Origin: a virus
Lineage: Duplodnaviria; Heunggongvirae; Uroviricota; Caudoviricetes
Strand: one strand, 5' to 3'
IMG/VR virus record: IMGVR_UViG_3300012663_000706
DNA: 64,000 bases
Shown: positions 5,870 to 58,325 of the stretch, in pieces
Layout: the number at the start of each line of letters is the position of its first letter
How positions within the stretch are numbered: position 1 is the stretch's first letter
Position numbers and translations under genes: made by a program
The notes under the pieces: generated by a model
Told to the model about the DNA's origin: nothing
Seen by the model: the letters and a program-made list of their open reading frames with translations, nothing else
Database searches by the model: none

Positions 5870-7087
5870 TTAAACTAACTTTAGAAATACCTTCCTGGTT
5901 TCTTCTTCGATTCTAGTAATCACTACAGTTATAGGATCTCCCTTTTTAATATCTTGAATATTAATTCCTTCTAATTCGCTAGAGTGCAGAAGACCTGTAA
6001 TTCCTTCCTCGATTTCAATAAATAAACCGTAATCTTTAATAGATCGAACAGTCCCTTGAACTTCTTGAGGTACAGCATATCTGCTCGATGCGCCATTCCA
6101 TGGATTAACAGTAGAATCAGTTTTCTGAGTTAAAGTTATTTTCGTAGTTGATATAATATCTTTAACAAAGAATGTAATTGGAGTTCCTGGATTTAAATTA
6201 CCTTTAGCATAAAGTTCTGCTGTTTCGGTAGATAAATCGTTAATGTGAATCATACCAGTTAAGCAACCATTAAATTCAACGAATACTCCGTATTTAGTTG
6301 AACCAGTTACATTACCTTCTTGTTCCTTCTCCATATTTGCTCTAAGTTCTTCAATGTGTTGAGGAATCATTGCTTGTAAATATGCACGATGCGAAACTAC
6401 GATTGTACCTTTTTCTGGTGAGAATGAAACAGGAACAACATACATGTCTGTTCCGATAATAGATTCAAAGTTAGCTAGTTTATTAATACCTGCTAAAGAT
6501 CCTGGCATGAAACATTCAATACCTTGTACTGTTACCATGTAACCTCCACCTGGAATCATTTTATCGATTCTTCCGGCGTATGCAGTACTCTTGGTTTCAG
6601 CGGCAGCCATTAAATCATTAATGATAGCTTGTTTCGTTCCTTCTGTTATAGAACCTAGGCAGAATCCTTTACTTGAACTGTCATCAATAATTTTAACAGT
6701 AAATTCTTTATCTTTTTGGATTAATTCCTTGAAAGCAGGGGATTCACGATCTAAATCAATATAAATTAATTCTCTGTGGCCAACATCAATAGTTGCCCAT
6801 CTTGAATCCATTGAATATATTTTACCAACTAAATGATCGCCGTTCGAAACTTTAGATACAAATTTATCTAATGAATTTTCGTACATTTCGTACATTTGTT
6901 GTGCATTTTTTGCTAAAGAATAAACTTTAACGCCATGCGGTACTTTAACGTGTGGATTTCCTTTTCTCATTCGGCTTGGACAGCCTTCAGTGTACGCATC
7001 CCAATCGAAATCTTCTAATCCTTGGGTTGGCAACTCTTTTGTTGTTTTTTGGATTAGGTCTTGTTTTTTTACTAATTCTTGTAGCAT
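5870..7087 (-). CDS. rpsA: Ribosomal protein bS1 homolog (about four S1 domains)
   Basis: Bacteroidota-like N-terminal EDFDWDAY; S1 repeats YGVFVEFNGCLTGMIHINDLS and YGLFIEIEEGITGLLHSSEL. Confidence 0.85.
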   Translation of the reverse strand: MLQELVKKQDLIQKTTKELPTQGLEDFDWDAYTEGCPSRMRKGNPHVKVPHGVKVYSLAKNAQQMYEMYENSLDKFVSKVSNGDHLVGKIYSMDSRWATIDVGHRELIYIDLDRESPAFKELIQKDKEFTVKIIDDSSSKGFCLGSITEGTKQAIINDLMAAAETKSTAYAGRIDKMIPGGGYMVTVQGIECFMPGSLAGINKLANFESIIGTDMYVVPVSFSPEKGTIVVSHRAYLQAMIPQHIEELRANMEKEQEGNVTGSTKYGVFVEFNGCLTGMIHINDLSTETAELYAKGNLNPGTPITFFVKDIISTTKITLTQKTDSTVNPWNGASSRYAVPQEVQGTVRSIKDYGLFIEIEEGITGLLHSSELEGINIQDIKKGDPITVVITRIEEETRKVFLKLV

Positions 7088-50843: not shown

Positions 50844-51113
50844 TTAATCTTCTTTTTGGATTGAACCTCGATTAGGTCCAAACGACATTAAACGTTGAAC
50901 ACAATTACTACATAGAACGCCGGTCGAATCAGGACTAGAAAAAACCCATTGGTCGCAAACACCATCTTCTGGAGCCGCTTGAGAATATTTACTTAATTCA
51001 GGTTTGGAGTTCATGCAAATCATTGCGTGACCCATCTTTCCAGTTTTAGATCCTAAGATTGTTGTTTCCATTATCCTAGTCTTCCAACCAACTACTTCTT
51101 TTTTACTCGCCAT
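50844..51113 (-). CDS. Small Cys-containing hypothetical protein
   Basis: C...C...CSNC, a possible zinc ribbon. Confidence 0.55.
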   Translation of the reverse strand: MASKKEVVGWKTRIMETTILGSKTGKMGHAMICMNSKPELSKYSQAAPEDGVCDQWVFSSPDSTGVLCSNCVQRLMSFGPNRGSIQKED

Positions 51114-51336
51114 CTTGTTCGATTTTTGTGAATTCGTATTTACTCTTAATAAAATGATTTAGCGCCTGTCCAGCACTAGTAGAGTTTGCAAACTTGTGGT
51201 AGTCATCGGCTTCGACACCATGATAGGAATAGACAGCGCCACTTTTAAAAGTTACTATGAACTCTTTGGTGTCTGCATAGTAGCTAGTCATTTCGATTGT
51301 TGAAGACTCTAATTGCGTGTGTTGAACTTTAATCAT
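51103..51336 (-). CDS. KTSC-domain protein
   Basis: ESSTI...Y...VTFKSGAVYSYHGV...SAGQ...IK. Confidence 0.85.
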   Translation of the reverse strand: MIKVQHTQLESSTIEMTSYYADTKEFIVTFKSGAVYSYHGVEADDYHKFANSTSAGQALNHFIKSKYEFTKIEQDGE

Positions 51337-51379
51337 ATTTCTTTAATTTTAGTTATGTGGGGGATTTTCTTTACCTATC

Positions 51380-51407
51380 TTATATGGGAAATTTTTGAGT
51401 TGTTTCA
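51380..51407 (-). promoter_or_regulatory. Class-2 promoter (TGAAAC-N16-ATATAA)
   Basis: One of 9 sites with this bipartite motif. Confidence 0.6.
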
Positions 51408-51449
51408 TGTAATCTATGTCCCTAAGAATTTTTATACACACTATATTAT

Positions 51450-52767
51450 AATACCAAGGGCCTCTCACCCTCGCCGATTGGACAACTTCAACGACCTTCA
51501 ACGCCCTTTCAGACTACAACACCCCTGATAGTAACGCCAGTATACCATCGGAAGAATAGGAGGTCCCCAAACCGTACTTATGAGTATTCATATAACCAAG
51601 AGGATAGGGACCACTCTACTGAAGGGTGACAATACCGAGTCGTCTTAATTCTATGTCCCCTCCGAATTGCCTACTGCCGATCCTATTAGATCTACGAGTC
51701 TTTTATTGTTTACAGTTTATAGTTAATAGTAAACAATCTATTTGGAGTCTAGTACCATTTGGTGGTGTTGCACTAGACTAGAAGCGACGCCCCATCACCG
51801 AGACTGACCTTGGCCCTTTGAGACCTTGGAGTACTTCGGTCCTCGATGAGGGTCGGGTAGCAGGGTACCTGCATCCAGACGACAGTCTGGTAGTAGATTC
51901 CCGGAGCTGGAAAAAACGGGCCTACAGGGAACGTTCAACCCTATGAGGGCCCTCTGACATCTCCTAGTCGCGAATGGGACGGGCCCATTTCGATCGGGAA
52001 CTGGATTCTCCGTATCTTTATAACGGTTCTTATTGGTTTCTTTTAGGTCTTTCTGGTACTTATTGTATTTTATGGCCACCGGATTTCCCGGGAAATAATA
52101 GGGCCCTTGGAGAACTCAAAGTATCTGAAACGGGCCGGTTAGGTAGAAAAGGGGGCCTGCACGGACCGAGATAATGTGTGCACTTCTGGTAAAGTGTTTC
52201 GCTAAAAGACTTATTATTAATTTAAAGTCATGACCCTTCACTCCTGGAGCAGAGCATGTACGTCTAATCGGGCCATTTCCTTATCTGGCTAATCGGGCCC
52301 ACCGATTTCTGGTACCGGTAACAGGTGATGCTCTCGTTGAGTAGGAAGCTTGGAGTCCCGTTAATCGCGCTTTAAGCCACCAAGGCTCGTAGGACTCCGA
52401 TCACTAGCAGGACTGGGAGTCGCGGAACGTGGAGTCGCTATCTTCTAGTTCTCCTATACCTATCTAGTCCTTTATGCTCTTATAGCTCTAAGTGCCTATA
52501 ACGAGCACTCTTGGTGCTTATAGCCTTTAGGTGCCTACTATGTCCTCCTTATAGGCATTTTAATAGGTTATTGGTTTATTGGGCCCGAAGGGACTGATGT
52601 CCCTTGAGCAGTGGAGCACTAGTGGCACTGATCAGTGCTAGTGGCATAGTGACTCACCAGTGCACTAGGTGGCATATAGTGCTCCTGGAGTGTCACCTGG
52701 AGTGACTTCTGGAAGTGTCCTGGGAGTGCACTCCGGTAAGTGTTACCGGTAAGTGCTCCTGGAGTGA
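51450..52767. other. GC-rich, hairpin/palindrome-dense non-coding block (terminus, origin or structured RNA candidate)
   Basis: No credible ORF, a sharp compositional shift and many short inverted repeats. Confidence 0.6.
52679..52767. repeat. Degenerate tandem array of about seven 11-14 nt quasi-palindromic units
   Basis: TG-n2-4-(C/T)C(T/C)GG(A/TA)AG-like units. Confidence 0.7.
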
Positions 52768-53226
52768 TTATGCTACTACTTCCATACGGTTAAAAACATC
52801 CTCTGGAGTGTTATTAACGAAAGCTTTATCGGCCCAAGTTTTAGCGTTACATAACCTGTAGTTAGTTTGGCTATATAAGTTACTATTAGACCAGTTTTGG
52901 TTAATATCTCCTACTTCCATATCTAAGAATAACTGTGTGTCCATAAGAACGATTTTGTTTCCTTTACGGGCAAAAACAGTTAACCAAGTATCTGTACCTT
53001 CTGCTTTAAACTGAATCGTTTGTAGGGCACCTTTTTTAAAGTTTCTAAATACGTTAATAGCTCTTTTCCATTGTGGACCAGATTCCCATTTACATTTAAT
53101 ACCTAAGTCATCTACTGTGGTCATAAAACCAGCTTGAACTTTAACGATTGCTTGGTACTCTCCTTTACGATCTTGGATAAAATCTGTTTGGTTAATTCTT
53201 TCTGAGTTGATAATTTGCTTTGTCAT
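52768..53226 (-). CDS. Hypothetical early protein
   Basis: 152 aa ORF after a class-1 promoter. Confidence 0.7.
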   Translation of the reverse strand: MTKQIINSERINQTDFIQDRKGEYQAIVKVQAGFMTTVDDLGIKCKWESGPQWKRAINVFRNFKKGALQTIQFKAEGTDTWLTVFARKGNKIVLMDTQLFLDMEVGDINQNWSNSNLYSQTNYRLCNAKTWADKAFVNNTPEDVFNRMEVVA

Positions 53227-53258
53227 AATGTGGATGTTTTAAAGTGTTATTGTTAATT

Positions 53259-53334
53259 TGTTATATGTAAATATAAACAATTTATTTCAAACCCGAAACG
53301 ATTTAGTGAATTATTTTCAAAAAAGTTATTAACA
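53259..53334 (-). promoter_or_regulatory. Class-1 promoter with TGTTAATAAC box
   Basis: Core motif plus box at 53325-53334. Confidence 0.75.
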
Positions 53335-53348
53335 TTCTGGACACACGG

Positions 53349-53374
53349 AAAAGGGCCCTTTTGAGGCCCTTTTC
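53349..53374 (-). terminator. Intrinsic terminator (possibly bidirectional)
   Basis: Stem AAAAGGGCC/GGCCCTTTT downstream of the HTH gene. Confidence 0.7.
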
Positions 53375-53396
53375 TTCTGGATACTGGAAAGGCTAC

Positions 53397-53642
53397 TTAC
53401 GCGTTAACGTAGGTAGAGTTCGCTTTGCGCTTACGAAGTAAATCGTATGCTGCATTCATGATTTGGTCGTTAAACTCTTTACCGTTAAGTACATCACTTA
53501 CATGTGTAGTACTATAGTCCGTGCGGTATGCAATTTCTGCAACATCTCCTCTACGTTGGCGACTATTAACGATAGCTAACTTCTGTGTGTAGCTCAACTT
53601 CTTGTAAGAGCTAGGTCTGTTGGTGTTAAACGTGTAATTCAT
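53397..53642 (-). CDS. Small helix-turn-helix DNA-binding protein
   Basis: GDVAEIAYRTDYSTTHVSDVLNGK; start set at 53642, downstream of the class-2 promoter at 53666-53692. Confidence 0.7.
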   Translation of the reverse strand: MNYTFNTNRPSSYKKLSYTQKLAIVNSRQRRGDVAEIAYRTDYSTTHVSDVLNGKEFNDQIMNAAYDLLRKRKANSTYVNA

Positions 53643-53699
53643 TTGTATGTTGTTTGATGTATATCTTATATGGGCCCTGCCCGTTTGTTTCAAAAAATA

Positions 53700-53760
53700 A
53701 TTTGAAAATAATTGCATAAAAGTTTTTTTATGTCGTGGATTATGTTTATATTTACATATG
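53700..53760 (+). promoter_or_regulatory. Class-1 promoter with no substantial downstream ORF
   Basis: ATGTC-N10-TTTATATTTACATAT at 53730-53759. Confidence 0.65.
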
Positions 53761-53775
53761 AAAAATAACAAAATG

Positions 53776-53888
53776 ACATAACGGGCCCATGGCCACCAGG
53801 GTTAACCACCCGACAAGGGTTCGCTTTTTCCACCGGAGCGCAGAGGGTAGACTCCGACCTGTTTTATATACAGGAGTTCCCCGTATGT
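53776..53888 (+). ncRNA. Candidate small structured RNA
   Basis: GC-rich island downstream of a promoter; 5' ACATAACGGG can pair with 3' CCCGTATGT; internal stems. Confidence 0.35.
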
Positions 53889-53949
53889 AGTGCGTCAATA
53901 TAAAAGTAATCAATTTCCACGACATGGTAAAATAAAGTTTTGAACAGTA

Positions 53950-54025
53950 TGTTAATAACTTTTTTGAAAATAAATCACTAAATCGTTTCCGGTTTGAAAA
54001 ATTATGTTTATATTTACATATAACA
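53950..54025 (+). promoter_or_regulatory. Class-1 promoter with TGTTAATAAC box
   Basis: Box at 53950-53959; TTTGAAAA...TTTATATTTACATATAAC. Confidence 0.78.
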
Positions 54026-54043
54026 AATTAACAAAGATACATT

Positions 54044-54397
54044 ATGAACATATCACTTTCCCCTTCCGAAATCCAAGTTGTTAAAAACGCTTTAGTTGAC
54101 TACAAAGCTAACCTAGTAGGTGCTGGTACTCAGTATTCTATTGCAACCGCTCTCCTACATACGATCGTAGAAAAAGAGGCTAAGGAAGCTAATAGAACTC
54201 CAAAGGTTATTCCTAATAAGCAATGGATGTTTAACTTTACTACTGGAGGTTGGAACACTGTATATGCTAAAACTAAACGTGGAGCTATCGCTCAGGCTGC
54301 TAGGGAATATAAGACCTCAAACTTGATTCCTAATCCTAAAACTTTCGCAGTAGCTACTGATGCTGCTATGAAAAACGCTTTAAGTTTATTCTATTAA
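54044..54397 (+). CDS. Hypothetical early protein
   Basis: 117 aa ORF after a class-1 promoter; WMFNF-GGWNTVYA motif. Confidence 0.7.
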   Translation: MNISLSPSEIQVVKNALVDYKANLVGAGTQYSIATALLHTIVEKEAKEANRTPKVIPNKQWMFNFTTGGWNTVYAKTKRGAIAQAAREYKTSNLIPNPKTFAVATDAAMKNALSLFY

Positions 54398-54400
54398 TCC

Positions 54401-54431
54401 TGAAACAAAATCACAATAATCTATATAAATA
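54401..54431 (+). promoter_or_regulatory. Class-2 promoter overlapping a TATAAATA late-type box
   Basis: TGAAAC-N16-ATATAA; TATAAATA at 54424-54431. Confidence 0.6.
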
Positions 54432-54463
54432 TAACAGTTTAACAAATCAAACACCAAAAAAAC

Positions 54464-55612
54464 ATGGGAACAATCACAACACTTTCAAACAACGTCATCT
54501 CTAAACGTAAACAAGAGACCTTACAAGCACAAGCTATCCGTAAAACAGTAGCATTCAGAGACGTAAAATTAATCGATGACAAAACCATCGAATATAACGG
54601 ATCTCGTATTGGAATTACCAATGGATGTTTTAAGTCTTTACTTAAACTAATCGGAATGTCTAATCAGTTTGCTGCAAATTTCGAAAACTTATTTAATGCT
54701 GAAGCCAAAGCAACTTTCATTAACCGTATTAAAGACGCTATGTCTTCTAATGCTGGTAAATTAAGCGAAGTTACATTGGTCCTTTCACCTTATAATAAGA
54801 CCGTTATCGGAATCACAAAGAAACCAACCGATCTTATTTCTAACGAGCAATTCTTAGGAGTAGCTGAAAGAATTATCGATCAACAAGGATTCGATGTTAC
54901 TAACTGGTCAGTCGATCCAACTAGTGGAATTATCCAAATCAATGCATTTAATCCAAAAGCAATGTTTGGTGTTGAAGGTCTTAGCGATGAGGTTTTCACT
55001 GGAGGAGTTACTTTTAAGAACTCACCACTACAAGGTTTCCAAGTTCTACCTTATGTTAACCGTTTATGGTGTACAAATGGTATGACAACTGCCTTAGCTG
55101 AAGAAGCTTACACTCTTAATTCATTAGACTCTACCACTATGGAGAAGTTCTTTGAACAAATGCAAGAATTACGTAATAACAATTACGCTCCGAAAGCATT
55201 TGCTGACAAAGTTAGAATGGCTGTTAACACTCCCGCATCTCTTAAAGAAATGAAAGGAGCTTATAACATCATCTCTAGTCATGCTGGAGAAAATGCAGAT
55301 CGTTGGATCCCACTAGCTGAAAACTTATCTAAGTATAAAGCTGCTGGTTATGAGGATCTTACAGCCGACCAAATGTCAGCTGCTAAATCAAACCAATCTG
55401 TTTGGTCAGTTATTAATGGTCTTACACACTTTGCTACTCACGCTCCTGATTTAATCACTAGCAACATGCAAGAATCAGATTCTACTAAGATGATGGTTCA
55501 AGCCGGTAACATCTTCGGTAAGACACGCTTCGATCACCAAAACGACATGCCAAATCCATTTGGTAACAATGTCCTTCAGAACACTACTCAGATCGGTTCA
55601 TTATTGAACTAA
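54464..55612 (+). CDS. DUF932-like protein
   Basis: RLWCTNG motif and C-terminal WSVINGLTHFATH. Confidence 0.7.
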   Translation: MGTITTLSNNVISKRKQETLQAQAIRKTVAFRDVKLIDDKTIEYNGSRIGITNGCFKSLLKLIGMSNQFAANFENLFNAEAKATFINRIKDAMSSNAGKLSEVTLVLSPYNKTVIGITKKPTDLISNEQFLGVAERIIDQQGFDVTNWSVDPTSGIIQINAFNPKAMFGVEGLSDEVFTGGVTFKNSPLQGFQVLPYVNRLWCTNGMTTALAEEAYTLNSLDSTTMEKFFEQMQELRNNNYAPKAFADKVRMAVNTPASLKEMKGAYNIISSHAGENADRWIPLAENLSKYKAAGYEDLTADQMSAAKSNQSVWSVINGLTHFATHAPDLITSNMQESDSTKMMVQAGNIFGKTRFDHQNDMPNPFGNNVLQNTTQIGSLLN

Positions 55613-55630
55613 TCTTTGTTTAATTTGTTA

Positions 55631-55657
55631 AAGGGAGTCTTCGGACTCCCTTTTTTT
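55631..55657 (+). terminator. Intrinsic terminator
   Basis: Stem GGGAGTC/GACTCCC with a TTCG loop, followed by T7. Confidence 0.9.
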
Positions 55658-55665
55658 GTGCAAAA

Positions 55666-55742
55666 TGTTAATAACTTTTTTGAAAATAAAGTGAAAAAAG
55701 TTATACCGATTGAAAAATTATGTTTATATTTACATATAACAA
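55666..55742 (+). promoter_or_regulatory. Class-1 promoter with TGTTAATAAC box
   Basis: Box at 55666-55675 plus core. Confidence 0.78.
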
Positions 55743-55759
55743 ATTAAAACTTACACATT

Positions 55760-55978
55760 ATGCAAAAGTATTCACCGATTTACCACACCATTTACTGTTT
55801 AGTAGCGTTTAAAGTAGCTTTCATGACTATGCAAGGTACCCTACAGAACTACGTTAAATTCGCGGATCCATTAAACGAAATGTTTTTCTGTGTTGGAGCC
55901 CTAATGATTGGTTTCTTGTACCTATATGCTGCTAGTACCGACATCTACGAAGTTATCAAAGGTACTAAGAACAAGTAA
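55760..55978 (+). CDS. Small early membrane protein
   Basis: Two hydrophobic segments; has its own class-1 promoter. Confidence 0.65.
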   Translation: MQKYSPIYHTIYCLVAFKVAFMTMQGTLQNYVKFADPLNEMFFCVGALMIGFLYLYAASTDIYEVIKGTKNK

Positions 55979-55981
55979 AAT

Positions 55982-56045
55982 TGTTAATAACTTTTTGAAC
56001 AAAAGTTATACCGATTGAAAAATTTTATTTATATTTACATATAAC
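55982..56045 (+). promoter_or_regulatory. Class-1 promoter with TGTTAATAAC box
   Basis: Box at 55982-55991 plus core. Confidence 0.75.
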
Positions 56046-56064
56046 ATTTAAACATCCACAAAAA

Positions 56065-57177
56065 ATGACAAGAAAGCAATTCACAGTCCACCAAACAGAA
56101 GAGAACAACTTCTTCTTAGAAAACATCGAAAACTCTAATGACACGGTCCTAGTTAATAAAGACCATGCTAAGTATAACTGGACGACACAGAACCAAGGTC
56201 GTATAATAAACATCACCGATGCCGGTCGTTGGAATAGCCAAAAAGATTACGATAACGTCTATGGTAACCAGACAGTATCCAACAGGAAACAACCAGTAAC
56301 CATCAGTCAACCATCAGTTGAGGTTAAGTTGACAATGTTAGACGATTTAGATATTAACCCAGACTTATTCGTACCACTCCCTACTGGAACCATCTTCGAC
56401 AAATTCGTTTCCGAAGAAGGCGGTTTCCTACCTGGTTCTAACATCATGGCAGCTGGAGCTCCCGGTATCGGTAAAACAACCGTTCTCCTAGATCTATTAT
56501 CTAACCTGAACCAAGCCGGTAAGAAAGTTCTTTTTATCTCGGCTGAGATGAACCGAATCGACATGGCCAGATACCTAAAGAGATTCCCGAAATGGGGTAA
56601 TTTGCCGATCCTGTTCCTATCCGATTACGAAGAATGTCCGAAAGAGGCCGTTGAGAAAATCTTAAACCAAGGTTGGGACGTAGTCTTAACTGACTCCTAC
56701 ACCGAAGTAAATGACACGGTAAAAGAAGAATGCGGTTTAACGCGAGGTAAAGTCGAAAAATGGTTCTTAAACCTGATGTCGAGCCATAACGACGCGAATA
56801 ACGAGGCGAAGAAACACACCTGCTTTATTACGATCCTGCAGCTATCTAAAGGCGGTAACTTCGTCGGGTCGAATAAACTAAAACACATGACCACGTCGAT
56901 GATGAGCCTACAGTGGGACGGATCCGAAAACTCAGGAGCTCGCTACATGGAGTTCTCTAAGAACCGCGTCGGCCAAGTAAATAAGAAACTCTATTTTAAC
57001 CTAACGAACGGAGTAGGATTCGACGAGGCAAGATACGCAAGAGACCTGTATAACGACGAGATAGTAGCTTCCGAAGTCGCGCAGATCGGTAAGGAATCAG
57101 ACGCTTGGGATCGGATCTTCGGTTTAGCAACCCTAGCTACCGAAGCCGAAATAACAGAGGACTCAGTAGAGATCTAA
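56065..57177 (+). CDS. RecA-superfamily ATPase, RadA/Sms-like
   Basis: GAPGIGKTT, FISAEM, LTDS, GSNKLKH and SKNRVG (KNRFG-like); no Zn finger or Lon-like domain. Confidence 0.8.
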   Translation: MTRKQFTVHQTEENNFFLENIENSNDTVLVNKDHAKYNWTTQNQGRIINITDAGRWNSQKDYDNVYGNQTVSNRKQPVTISQPSVEVKLTMLDDLDINPDLFVPLPTGTIFDKFVSEEGGFLPGSNIMAAGAPGIGKTTVLLDLLSNLNQAGKKVLFISAEMNRIDMARYLKRFPKWGNLPILFLSDYEECPKEAVEKILNQGWDVVLTDSYTEVNDTVKEECGLTRGKVEKWFLNLMSSHNDANNEAKKHTCFITILQLSKGGNFVGSNKLKHMTTSMMSLQWDGSENSGARYMEFSKNRVGQVNKKLYFNLTNGVGFDEARYARDLYNDEIVASEVAQIGKESDAWDRIFGLATLATEAEITEDSVEI

Positions 57178-57179
57178 GA

Positions 57180-57740
57180 TATAGCCGTCCGGTATTCCGG
57201 TAAAGAAAGGACCTGTTCGTGGATGTTCGGGTCCTTTTGGCATGTCCGGGGCTCGTTAGCTAATCCGACCGGTAGTAAATTCGCGGTTACTCCCCCCCCC
57301 CCAGTACTTAGAGATTTTTCGGTGTGTAGCGGCAAAAAGTGCATAACCGAGTGTCCGGTGGTCCAGATGCTCAGAAATCACCTTCGGCAGTGTAGGGTAG
57401 GCGCTAGAGTCCCGGAGTGTGTATGTGTGAGTTGAGGTTTAAGGGACCCTGAGGGTCCTACATGGAGGCTTGAACACTATATATCTTGTTCTCTACGTAC
57501 ACGCGCGCGTAGGGTAGATTATACTTAGGACCAGGGTAGGCCTTGGAGTACCTGGATACATGGAGGGAGTAGAGGAGGGGTTACGAGCCTAGGAGAGACG
57601 GGTACTATATCTTTATTGTCTTCTTATTGCTGATCTTCTTTATCCTTATCTATGTTTAGATCGTATTGACTCTTATAAAGATTTTTTATTTTATTGGTTA
57701 TTGGGTGGGCCGAGAAGTTCTGGCTGTCCGGTCCCTAGGC
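57180..57740. other. Second GC-rich non-coding block at the strand convergence
   Basis: Terminator-like stem at about 57207-57238, C11 run at 57292-57302, palindromes, and motifs shared with 51450-52767. Confidence 0.55.
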
Positions 57741-57742
57741 AT

Positions 57743-57771
57743 AAAAAAAGAGGACTGTTTAGGTCCTCTTT
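57743..57771 (-). terminator. Intrinsic terminator
   Basis: Stem AAAGAGGAC/GTCCTCTTT with A-run. Confidence 0.8.
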
Positions 57772-57794
57772 GGTAGATTAGTTTTTGGTTTGGA

Positions 57795-58259: not shown

Positions 58260-58295
58260 CGTGTTATTATTTTTGTATTGTTTATATATCTGCAT

Positions 58296-58325
58296 AAAAA
58301 AAGAGGACGGTTTAGGTCCTCTTTT
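58296..58325 (-). terminator. Intrinsic terminator (near-copy of 57743-57771)
   Basis: Same stem with one mismatch in the loop. Confidence 0.8.

What the first reader, a model, noticed from the sequence alone, without database searches (positions are those of the whole stretch)
51450..52690. 1.3 kb GC-rich non-coding block packed with hairpins
Seen: stems ATTGTTTAC/GTAAACAAT (51705/51729), AGTCTAGT/ACTAGACT (51746/51772), CCAGAC/GTCTGG (51875/51885), GGAGTCC/GGACTCC (52352/52392), TGCCTATAA/TTATAGGCA (52493/52549), AAGGGAC/GTCCCTT (52588/52599) and GGAGCACTA/TAGTGCTCC (52613/52677). Also perfect 14-bp palindromes at 52083-52096 and 52625-52638, and the direct repeat CTAATCGGGCC (52264, 52289). 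It is the largest gene-free stretch in a densely coding window. Inference: a large structured RNA, a replication origin, or a packaging/injection-control signal. The zero-loop palindromes favour a DNA-level role.
Basis: partly seen in the sequence, partly recalled or inferred. Interest (0 to 1): 0.7.

Follow-up and report, generated by a model that had tools for sequence, protein, structure and literature searches.

The report
GC-rich DNA wall beside early genes
A 1.4 kb gene-free, unusually GC-rich stretch in an uncultured freshwater jumbo phage is real and conserved, but it behaves like a silent stretch of DNA carrying protein-binding-type boxes at the edge of the early-gene island, not like a large folded RNA.

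Summary
The block is real: 51337-52767 is ORF-free and 46.6% GC, while four-fold sites of neighbouring genes are 10-13% GC.

"Packed with hairpins" holds only for the right 320 nt (52450-52767). The other 1.1 kb has chance-level inverted repeats and folding energy.

The block is kept ORF-free and GC-rich in four lineages of uncultured freshwater phages and, in outline, in a distant 233 kb relative. It is a mosaic of conserved parts:
- an array of CACT units with a ~12-nt period, starting at the stop codon of the last leftward early gene;
- about a dozen short conserved boxes, including a 26-nt core;
- a terminator-like hairpin;
- spacer that changes about as fast as silent sites.

There is no tRNA, no Rfam family, no consensus RNA structure, no coding signal and no stop-codon recoding. 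Three metatranscriptomes give RNA contigs on both flanks but none inside the block.

Best reading: a silent, DNA-level boundary and protein-binding platform. It walls the only opposite-strand early island off from a one-directional gene array. Whether it also serves as an origin or a terminal-repeat/injection boundary is open. A large structured RNA is unlikely.

The parts
51337..52767 (.). Whole ORF-free GC-rich block between the KTSC-domain gene (51103-51336, minus) and ORF152 (52768-53226, minus)
   Evidence: ORF lists. GC 46.6%. No coding signal by tblastx. No open frame under recoded stops. No Pfam hit for its short ORFs.
52600..52767 (-). Array of 14 CACT-headed units (CACTYCCRGNNN type) spaced 11-14 nt, starting right after the ORF152 stop codon
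   Evidence: 14 CACT in 160 nt against 1.8 per kb in the window. The same phased array is in all relatives; L037 has three extra CACTCCCAGGA units. The distant L010 lineage has CAATG units with 12-14 nt spacing. RNA contigs of ORF152 stop at 52717 and 52625.
52450..52767 (.). The only part with a real excess of inverted repeats and of folding energy
   Evidence: 0 of 300 shuffles reach the observed counts. (z -2.7 to -3.8). (z -2.9 and -3.1 for two sub-segments).
52566..52605 (-). Short hairpin (AAGGGAC/GTCCCTT) followed by the conserved box CGGSCCAATAANCCAATAACC
   Evidence: The box is conserved in four lineages. The hairpin has z -3.06. A similar CCAATAACCAATAA word lies in block 2 at about 57691-57705.
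52227..52234 (.). Invariant palindrome GTCATGAC inside the conserved box AAGGGTCATGACTTT
   Evidence: Alignments.
52162..52187 (-). Unique 26-nt core box AGAAGTGCACACATTATCTCGGTCCG, preceded at a fixed 24-26 nt by a TAATAAT/TATAAT-like hexamer
   Evidence: One copy in the window, 0 expected. Invariant in four lineages. 22 of 26 positions are kept in the distant L010 lineage (that pattern was written after seeing L010).
51997..52130 (.). Hypervariable, locally AT-rich segment holding the box ACCAATAAGAACCGTTA (52021-52037, minus) and the lineage-specific 14-bp palindrome. Several metagenome contigs break here.
   Evidence: Contigs end 39-108 nt past the core (L001, L036, L018, L039, L024). L013 starts at the equivalent of 52089.
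51971..51995 (-). Conserved hairpin box GATCGAA(A)TGGG(G)CCCGTCCC(C)ATTCG
   Evidence: Conserved in all lineages. Some pairs are kept through changes on both sides (pairs 297/316, 300/314, 301/313). Its folding energy is not exceptional (z -0.24).
51911..51952 (-). Terminator-like hairpin GGGCC...GGCCC followed by a T6-7 run, then the palindromic TTCCNGGTCCGGRAA
   Evidence: Sequence conserved in all lineages. Fold -20.8 kcal/mol, z -0.72. The simple terminator scan missed it because its loop exceeds 8 nt.
51812..51822 (-). Copy of the strand-specific repeated box CTCNARGGGCC; the second exact copy is at 52102-52112
   Evidence: There are 1-3 copies, always on the gene strand and inside the block, in the relatives, and one copy in the block-2 equivalent of L010.
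51337..51450 (-). AT-rich conserved upstream region (promoter and leader) of the KTSC-domain gene operon
   Evidence: Conserved in all lineages. GC 25-30%.
57178..57794 (.). Second GC-rich (47.3%) ORF-free block, at the other edge of the early island
   Evidence: Inverted-repeat excess for arms of 7-8 nt. An equivalent 690-nt gap of 47% GC exists in the 233 kb relative.

Best explanation
The block is a stretch of DNA that works as DNA, not as an RNA gene. It is the left wall of the phage's early-gene island.

The island (52768-57177) carries repeated AT-rich early promoters that fire in both directions. In a fully assembled relative, it holds the only genes that point the other way in an otherwise one-directional genome of about 233 kb.

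The leftward early messenger (ORF57, ORF124, ORF152) runs into the hairpin-rich CACT-unit array and ends there. About 1.1 kb of GC-rich, promoter-free, essentially untranscribed spacer follows. It carries about a dozen short conserved boxes:
- a unique 26-nt core;
- the repeated boxes CTCNARGGGCC and CCAATAA;
- a conserved hairpin;
- a terminator-like hairpin.
The block ends with the AT-rich promoter and leader of the next operon.

Inferred mechanism:
- The array and boxes are binding sites for phage or host proteins. These stop early transcription and mark or organise the island boundary.
- The high GC is kept by selection. In a genome whose silent sites are about 10% GC, it keeps the spacer free of accidental promoters and hard to melt.

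Shown here: anatomy, conservation, composition, lack of RNA-type signals, and position.
Inferred: protein binding and the insulating function.

The same platform may also be an origin or a terminal-repeat boundary; these are listed as rivals. My split is about 0.25 plain boundary/insulator, 0.2 origin and 0.2-0.25 terminal-repeat/packaging/injection boundary. Together, a DNA-level role gets about 0.65-0.7.
For: Not an RNA or coding feature:
- ORF-free in every lineage, with no coding signal.
- No tRNA and no Rfam family.
- No consensus RNA structure.
- Hairpin and folding excess only at the right end.
- RNA contigs of three metatranscriptomes from three studies cover 26, 25 and 21 of 30 bins of the 13 kb laid. 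All three leave 51340-52624 empty, while a DNA run covers it. ORF152 RNA contigs stop at 52717 and 52625.

Conserved DNA features:
- Conserved boxes alternate with spacer.
- The core and CCAATAAG boxes recur in the same order in a lineage whose adjacent protein is only 39-40% identical.
- A phased unit array is present in every lineage. Its word changes from CACT to CAATG, as expected if a binding protein co-evolves with its sites.

Composition and rate:
- Block identity (81%, 55%, 57%) is close to four-fold-site identity in the ClpB-like gene (80%, 61%, 55%). Yet GC is 43-49% against GC4 of 10-13%.

Position:
- In the 233 kb relative, all genes except the island lie on one strand.
- Its cumulative GC skew has its minimum at the block-1 equivalent and its maximum at the block-2 equivalent.
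- Every other GC-rich gap in that genome is a tRNA cluster.
Against: - No binding protein is identified. ORF152 gave a poor model (pLDDT 38) and no family hit.
- A plain insulator does not need 1.4 kb or a 26-nt box conserved across distant lineages.
- The silence in RNA data rests on assembled contigs at low depth. The tool itself rates this as a weak hint.
- A -10-like hexamer at a fixed distance from the core, plus a conserved 3' hairpin and a T-run, could instead define a small-RNA gene.
- GC maintenance could have another cause. The RadA-like gene nearby also has GC4 of 40%.
Confidence: 0.55

Rival explanations
1. Iteron-type replication origin, as proposed for T4 oriE. An early-expressed initiator binds the 12-nt-period array. 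Early transcription running into the array helps open or prime the DNA at the nearby AT-rich patches. Replication then proceeds in the same direction as the long one-directional gene array.
For: - Evenly spaced units of about 12 nt lie at the end of an early operon. [quoted passage not shown]
- The block sits at the only strand-switch region of the relative's genome, where cumulative GC skew is extreme.
- A RecA/DnaB-fold ATPase gene lies in the island.
- AT-rich patches (27-38% GC) sit inside the GC-rich block.
- Contigs of the island have 2-3 times the depth of flank contigs in one DNA run.
Against: - There is no cluster of DnaA boxes: one TTWTNCACA in the block, and 6 in the window against 9 expected.
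- No initiator is identified.
- Origins are usually AT-rich, not 47% GC.
- The skew extreme follows trivially from gene orientation.
- The depth change looks like a step rather than a gradient, and the tool says it is no copy number.
- Even for T4, the role of the iterons in oriE is unproven.
Confidence: 0.2
2. Inner boundary of a terminally repeated, first-entering early cassette, like T5 and its injection stop signal, or a packaging recognition region. Under this reading, the roughly 5 kb island is a collapsed direct terminal repeat. The two GC-rich blocks hold the physical ends and the sites where terminase, or an entry-arrest factor, acts.
For: [quoted passage not shown] - Here an early island is bracketed by two such blocks.
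- In DNA run X1, near-identical contigs have depth 17-19 (left flank) and 10 (right flank) but 36-55 inside the island. The change falls within the two blocks.
- Five contigs from four lineages end 39-108 nt past the core box, and one starts at the centre of the CCCGGG palindrome.
- A unique conserved core flanked by repeated boxes resembles a cos/pac layout (from general knowledge of lambda cos and SPP1 pac).
Against: - Depth comes from one run of assembled contigs, exceeds 2-fold, and a second strain sharing only the island would explain it.
- The contig ends are equally explained by assembly-graph branching where a conserved core meets a hypervariable segment. They do not coincide to the base.
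- The relative's genome assembles as a circle with arbitrary break points, and IMG/VR found no end repeats.
- There are no DnaA boxes as in T5 iss.
- The block evolves fast, whereas T5 iss is highly conserved.
- No terminase gene was found nearby.
Confidence: 0.22
3. One or more RNA genes. Either the whole block is a large structured RNA, or, more plausibly, a small RNA of about 285 nt is made on the minus strand. That small RNA would start just after the TAATAAT-like hexamer (about 52195), carry the conserved core as a 5' seed, and end at the conserved hairpin plus T-run (about 51911).
For: - GC-rich intergenic DNA in an AT-rich genome is the classic signature of structured RNA.
- The -10-like hexamer keeps a fixed 24-26 nt distance to the core in all five lineages.
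- The pattern of conserved 5' part, variable middle and conserved 3' hairpins plus U-run is typical of small RNAs.
- A few pairs in the 51971-51995 hairpin are kept through changes on both sides.
Against: - No Rfam family even at E<=10; the only hits are 19.7 and 16.8 bits, far below gathering scores.
- RNAalifold covariation terms are -0.8, +0.1 and -1.0 kcal/mol.
- Folding z-scores are near zero over 51900-52450.
- No RNA contig lies in 51340-52624 in three metatranscriptomes in which contigs identical to the window cover neighbouring genes.
- Overall, the block changes as fast as silent sites.
- The hairpin next to the core is not kept in L010.
Confidence: 0.13
4. Functionless DNA: a decaying remnant of foreign, GC-richer DNA, or a by-product of slippage-driven expansion of GC-rich repeat units, tolerated between two operons.
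For: - The substitution rate equals that of four-fold sites, and indels are frequent.
- Unit copy number varies between close relatives.
- Related phages, including the isolate Flavobacterium phage immuto, have small genes at this place instead.
Against: - The block is kept ORF-free, of similar length (1.1-1.7 kb) and at 43-49% GC in five lineages, although silent sites are 10-13% GC.
- About a dozen boxes are invariant across lineages whose silent sites are saturated at 49-61% identity.
- No matching DNA was found in isolate phage genomes. The core has no match in 185,579 prokaryotic species genomes beyond chance 19-mers.
Confidence: 0.1

Closest known systems
Phage T5 injection stop signal (iss) region / Repeat Region 3 in the left terminal repeat
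   Same: [quoted passage not shown] It lies next to the first-expressed (pre-early) genes and is conserved among relatives (10.1101/866236).
   Different: T5 iss carries eight ordered DnaA boxes and is highly conserved. This block has no DnaA-box cluster, evolves at the silent-site rate apart from its short boxes, and is strikingly GC-rich. A terminal repeat is not shown here.
Phage T4 oriE iteron cluster
   Same: [quoted passage not shown]
   Different: Units here are degenerate (a CACT head plus CCRG), often dyad-symmetric, and spaced 11-14 nt. They are only the first 170 nt of a 1.4 kb block. No RepEA/RepEB homologue was found. The function of the T4 iterons is itself unproven.
Plasmid/phage centromere-like or initiator iteron arrays (R1 parC, pBtoxis tubC, P4 ori/crr)
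   Same: Arrays of 11-12 bp units bound cooperatively by a small DNA-binding protein. The word differs between related elements. This comparison rests on general knowledge and was not tested here.
   Different: No ParR/TubR/ParM/TubZ or P4 alpha-type gene was identified in the window. Block 2 does not carry the same array.
Large GC-rich structured RNAs of AT-rich genomes and phages (GOLLD, ROOL, OLE, HEARO, group I/II introns)
   Same: A long, ORF-free, GC-rich intergenic region in an AT-rich genome.
   Different: No match to any Rfam model, no consensus structure or covariation, no folding excess over most of its length, and no RNA contigs.

Membership tests
Any Rfam RNA family (including GOLLD, ROOL, group I/II introns, tmRNA, CRISPR repeats) | Score at or above the family's gathering threshold | tested here: not met
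   0 matches at gathering scores in the whole window. At E<=10 there were only CRISPR-DR20 at 19.7 bits (threshold 42) and mir-2686 at 16.8 bits (threshold 90).
tRNA gene cluster | Cloverleaf genes detectable by ARAGORN | tested here: not met
   0 tRNA or tmRNA genes in the window. In the 233 kb relative, tRNA clusters fill the other GC-rich gaps but not the block equivalents.
Large structured non-coding RNA (generic) | Conserved secondary structure supported by compensatory changes | tested here: not met
   RNAalifold on 7-9 sequences per sub-block gave -23.1, -11.6 and -10.1 kcal/mol, with covariation terms of -0.81, +0.09 and -1.04. Power is limited by having only four to five lineages.
Large structured non-coding RNA (generic) | Folding energy below dinucleotide shuffles along its length | tested here: not met
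   z below -2.5 only for 52475-52775 and one window at 51725-51874; the rest lies between -1.6 and +1.6.
Large structured non-coding RNA (generic) | Transcribed as a discrete, usually abundant RNA | tested here: inconclusive
   No RNA contig in 51340-52624 in three metatranscriptomes that cover the flanks. These are contigs, not raw reads, at low depth.
Iteron-type replication origin (plasmid type / T4 oriE type) | Array of evenly spaced direct repeats | tested here: met
   14 CACT units with 11-14 nt spacing, conserved in architecture across lineages.
Iteron-type replication origin (plasmid type / T4 oriE type) | Cognate initiator protein and host-factor sites (such as DnaA boxes) next to an AT-rich unwinding element | tested here: inconclusive
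   No DnaA-box cluster and no initiator recognised. AT-rich patches exist at about 51700, 52030 and 52190.
Iteron-type replication origin (plasmid type / T4 oriE type) | Origin activity | not testable with these tools
   Needs marker-frequency or 2D-gel data from infected cells.
T5-type iss / long-terminal-repeat boundary | Lies at the inner edge of a direct terminal repeat (twofold coverage, fixed read ends) | tested here: inconclusive
   Island contigs have depth 36-55 against 10-19 on the flanks in one DNA run, but this is contig depth from a mixed community. There are no read-end data. The relative's genome assembles as a circle without recognised end repeats.
T5-type iss / long-terminal-repeat boundary | Ordered pairs of DnaA boxes within inverted repeats | tested here: not met
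   A single TTWTNCACA match in the block, at 51432.
Intrinsic terminator | GC-rich hairpin followed by a T-run on the transcribed strand | tested here: met
   51911-51952 on the minus strand: a GGGCC/GGCCC stem plus inner stem, then T6. The sequence is conserved in all lineages. Termination itself was not shown.
Protein-coding gene (standard or recoded, or pseudogene) | Open frame, conserved frame in relatives, or family match | tested here: not met
   Stops of all three kinds in all six frames. The longest frame is 106 codons under the standard code and 180-209 with one stop recoded. tblastx hits occur in all frames with frame shifts. No Pfam hit.

The most novel reading that the evidence does not exclude
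The two GC-rich blocks may be the physical walls of a roughly 5 kb early cassette that is present in extra copies. Either it is a collapsed terminal repeat that enters the cell first, in the T5 manner, with block 1 as an entry- or transcription-arrest signal. Or it is a locally over-replicated segment bounded by GC-rich fork or transcription barriers. If so, this would be a new type of injection-stop or amplification-boundary element, in freshwater jumbo phages, probably of Bacteroidota. It would be defined by base composition and short boxes rather than by DnaA boxes.
Probability: 0.2. Interest if true: 0.7.

Novelty: new variant of a known kind. Interest (0 to 1): 0.45.

Why it matters
Large virulent phages often hold one or two long gene-free regions whose roles are still poorly understood, such as the T5 iss region and the T4 oriE iterons. 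This block gives a well-delimited case.

It changes as fast as silent sites yet holds 43-49% GC where silent sites are about 10% GC, so base composition itself appears to be under selection. It also carries a co-evolving phased repeat array and a 26-nt box conserved across distant lineages.

If the block proves to be an origin, a genome terminus or an entry-arrest site, it would anchor the replication/packaging map of a widespread group of uncultured freshwater jumbo phages. It would also give a compositional signature for finding such sites elsewhere.

The result is a caution too: a GC-rich intergenic region in an AT-rich genome is not enough to call a structured RNA.

Tried and rejected
- tRNA cluster: none.
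- Known RNA family: none.
- DNA similarity to isolate phages: none.
- Recoded or interrupted gene: rejected.
- Pseudogene of the neighbours' extra ORFs in relatives: no tblastn match.
- DnaA-box cluster: absent.
- Host-derived DNA: the core pattern hits three bacterial contigs, but they share no further similarity. These are chance 19-mers. The same holds for L017, L020, L021, L026, L030 and L035.
- ORF152 as the array-binding protein: the AlphaFold model was too poor to use (pLDDT 38), and the ESM Atlas gave nothing.
- Contig end of G005 inside the RadA-like gene as a genome terminus: rejected. Its ends overlap at 93% identity, and G003, G004 and G005 are circular permutations of one genome.
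- Sharing of boxes between block 1 and block 2: only the CCAATAA-type word and one imperfect CTCCAAGGCC, which is weak.
- A sigma-70 promoter formed by GTCATGAC plus TAATAAT: the spacing varies from 6 to 18 nt between lineages, so the two are not a fixed pair.
- Absence of RNA cover in the block is used only as a weak hint, as the tool prescribes.
Full report
**What is there**

The window is a low-GC (35%) phage genome. Baseplate and tail-fibre genes, a ClpB-like ATPase, a ClpP-like protease and a thymidylate-synthase-like gene lie around the finding. No whole genome is held for it.

Between the KTSC-domain gene (51103-51336, minus strand) and ORF152 (52768-53226, minus strand) lie 1431 nt without any credible ORF. 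GC is 46.6% there, 34.8% elsewhere, and only 10-13% at four-fold degenerate sites of neighbouring genes.

**Is it more than chance?**

Only in part.
- Perfect inverted repeats exceed dinucleotide-preserving shuffles in 52450-52767 (0 of 300 shuffles reach the observed counts).
- In 51337-52450 they do not (P = 0.13-0.44).
- Sliding 150-nt folds give z of -2.7 to -3.8 only for 52475-52775 and one window at 51725-51874.
- Two perfect 14-bp palindromes in 1.4 kb is more than expected (about 0.09 by my arithmetic). However, one is specific to this genome and the other to one lineage.

**What it is not**

- No tRNA and no Rfam family, even at E<=10.
- No DNA match in 50,697 isolate phage records.
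- No open frame under recoded stops.
- tblastx similarity to relatives appears in all frames, with frame shifts. That means conservation at the nucleotide level, not the coding level.
- No Pfam hit for its short ORFs.

**Relatives**

ORF152 and a 20-nt core pattern brought in contigs of uncultured freshwater phages. CheckV estimates of 42-50% completeness for contigs of 110-139 kb imply genomes of about 260-280 kb.

Four lineages carry the block in the same place: A (the window, L025, L034, L037, L039, L001), B (L002, L033, L024), C (L016, L038, L018, L027) and D (L036). In all of them it is ORF-free, 1.1-1.4 kb long and 46-49% GC. A distant lineage (L010-L012; neighbouring protein 39-40% identical) has a 1.4-1.7 kb equivalent at 43% GC.

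More distant phages have small genes there instead. These include the nearest isolate, Flavobacterium phage immuto (49.6% identity in ORF152).

**Anatomy from the alignments, read on the gene (minus) strand**

1. Directly after the stop codon comes an array of units headed by CACT. There are 14 in 160 nt, spaced 11-14 nt, against a background of 1.8 CACT per kb.
   - The array is phased in the same way in all lineages.
   - It gains units by duplication: L037 has three extra CACTCCCAGGA.
   - In the distant lineage it is replaced by CAATG units with 12-14 nt spacing.
   - Many units are half-palindromes (CACT...AGTG). This produces the local hairpin excess and explains why individual stems are not conserved.
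2. A short hairpin and the box CGGSCCAATAANCCAATAACC.
3. Boxes CGTTATAGG, ACCGGTACC, GCCCGATT and AAGGGTCATGACTTT.
4. A TAATAAT/TATAAT-like hexamer, at a fixed 24-26 nt before a unique 26-nt core (52162-52187).
5. A hypervariable, locally AT-rich segment with the box ACCAATAAGAACCGTTA.
6. A conserved hairpin box (51971-51995).
7. A terminator-like hairpin with a T-run (51911-51952).
8. Strand-specific copies of CTCNARGGGCC.
9. The AT-rich upstream region of the next operon (51337-51450).

**Rate and composition**

The block as a whole is 81%, 55% and 57% identical in three pairs of genomes. Four-fold sites of the ClpB-like gene in comparable pairs are 80%, 61% and 55% identical. Outside the boxes it therefore drifts at about the silent-site rate, with many indels.

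It nevertheless stays at 43-49% GC, where silent sites sit at 10-13%. Composition thus seems to be maintained in its own right.

**RNA tests**

- RNAalifold on three sub-blocks found only scattered short helices, with covariation terms near zero.
- A few pairs of the 51971-51995 hairpin are kept through double changes.
- The hairpin beside the core is compensated in one lineage but broken in L010.
- Twenty public runs hold part of the 9 kb around the block, six of them metatranscriptomes.
- Contigs of three metatranscriptomes from three studies were laid on 47-60 kb. They cover most bins, some with zero mismatches, so the same strain is present. None lies in 51340-52624, while a DNA run covers it.
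- ORF152 RNA contigs stop at 52717 and 52625, inside the array.
- The tool rates such absence as a weak hint, and I use it as such.

**Genome context**

- Repeated AT-rich early promoter cassettes lie at 53240-53340, 53938-54046, 55654-55762 and 56001-56067. They drive genes in both directions.
- The rightward genes (DUF932-like, RadA/DnaB-fold ATPase) end at a second GC-rich gap, 57178-57794.
- The contigs G003, G004 and G005 of the distant lineage are circular permutations of one genome of about 233 kb.
- In that genome every gene outside this island lies on one strand. Cumulative GC skew is minimal at the block-1 equivalent and maximal at the block-2 equivalent.
- All other GC-rich gaps in that genome are tRNA clusters.

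The two blocks are therefore the walls of the only opposite-strand island, which carries the early promoters.

**Two observations I cannot settle**

- In DNA run X1, contigs near-identical to the window have depth 17-19 left of the block and 10 to the right of block 2, but 36-55 within the island. This could mean a collapsed terminal repeat, local over-replication, or a second strain that shares only the island. The tool warns that contig depth is no copy number.
- Five contigs of four lineages end 39-108 nt past the core, and one starts at the centre of the CCCGGG palindrome. This is far from random given contig lengths. It is, however, also what de Bruijn assemblers do where a sequence shared by strains meets a hypervariable one.

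**Interpretation**

The evidence favours a DNA-level cis-acting region. Early transcription ends in the array. A GC-rich, promoter-free, silent spacer follows, studded with protein-binding-type boxes, and then the next operon's promoter.

I put about 0.65-0.7 on a DNA-level role:
- plain boundary/insulator, 0.25;
- origin of the T4 oriE type, 0.2 (PMC3016281);
- terminal-repeat, packaging or injection boundary of the T5 iss type, 0.2-0.25 (10.1101/866236).

I put 0.13 on an RNA gene, mainly the small-RNA reading of about 285 nt, and 0.1 on functionless DNA.

**Earlier notes of this scan**

The notes on the same genome had flagged the iteron-like array, the GGGCCC clustering (confirmed: 5 of 9 GGGCCC and 10 of 23 GGGCC lie in the block) and the bracketed early island. 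I tested these and found them correct as observations. The scan has not seen this block on other DNA.

Noticed in passing
window 52208-56981 against the flanks: In one freshwater DNA run, contigs nearly identical to the window have 2-3 times the depth inside the early island (36-55) compared with the left (17-19) and right (10) flanks. The change falls within the two GC-rich blocks. Possible causes are a collapsed terminal repeat, over-replication or strain mosaicism.
   Followed up: partly
window 56065-57177: The RadA/DnaB-fold ATPase gene has 40% GC at four-fold sites, against 10-13% in ClpB-like, ORF152 and DUF932-like genes. Its homologues in relatives are GC-rich too. A coding gene thus shares the odd composition of the two blocks.
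   Followed up: no
window 53240-53340, 53938-54046, 55654-55762, 56001-56067: Four to five copies of a 70-110 nt AT-rich promoter cassette (TTGAAAAATTATGTTTATATTTACATATAAC...) in both orientations, up to 89% alike. They probably also cause contig breaks in relatives (L002 and L009 start there).
   Followed up: partly
L001 about 6690-6790; also L002, L025, L038: A micro-ORF of about 35 codons with two CxxC pairs (...CRICGRNC...NGMCERCYENGGDDE) sits between ORF152 and the CACT array in some relatives, but not in the window. It is a candidate small DNA-binding protein.
   Followed up: no
G005 (L050-L061), whole 234 kb contig: A relative's genome of about 233 kb has essentially all genes on one strand except the DUF932/RadA island. 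It carries 29 tRNA genes in clusters at about 44-48 kb and 79-83 kb, one of them with a four-base anticodon call (ttga).
   Followed up: partly
window 57739-57771 and 58292-58324: Two 97%-identical copies of a hairpin flanked by an A-run and a T-run (GCATAAAAAAAGAGGACNGTTTAGGTCCTCTTT). It looks like a bidirectional terminator. A DNA contig variant skips the 553 nt between the copies.
   Followed up: no
window 51826-51897: The window has an extra hairpin-bearing insertion of about 35 nt (CCAGAC...GTCTGG) that all relatives lack. One DNA contig replaces 51827-51884 with 24 other letters.
   Followed up: no
window 57290-57302: A run of eleven C in block 2.
   Followed up: no
window 54464-55612: The DUF932-like gene is by far the best covered stretch in all three metatranscriptomes (contig depths 48-104, against 2-10 for most neighbours).
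   Followed up: no
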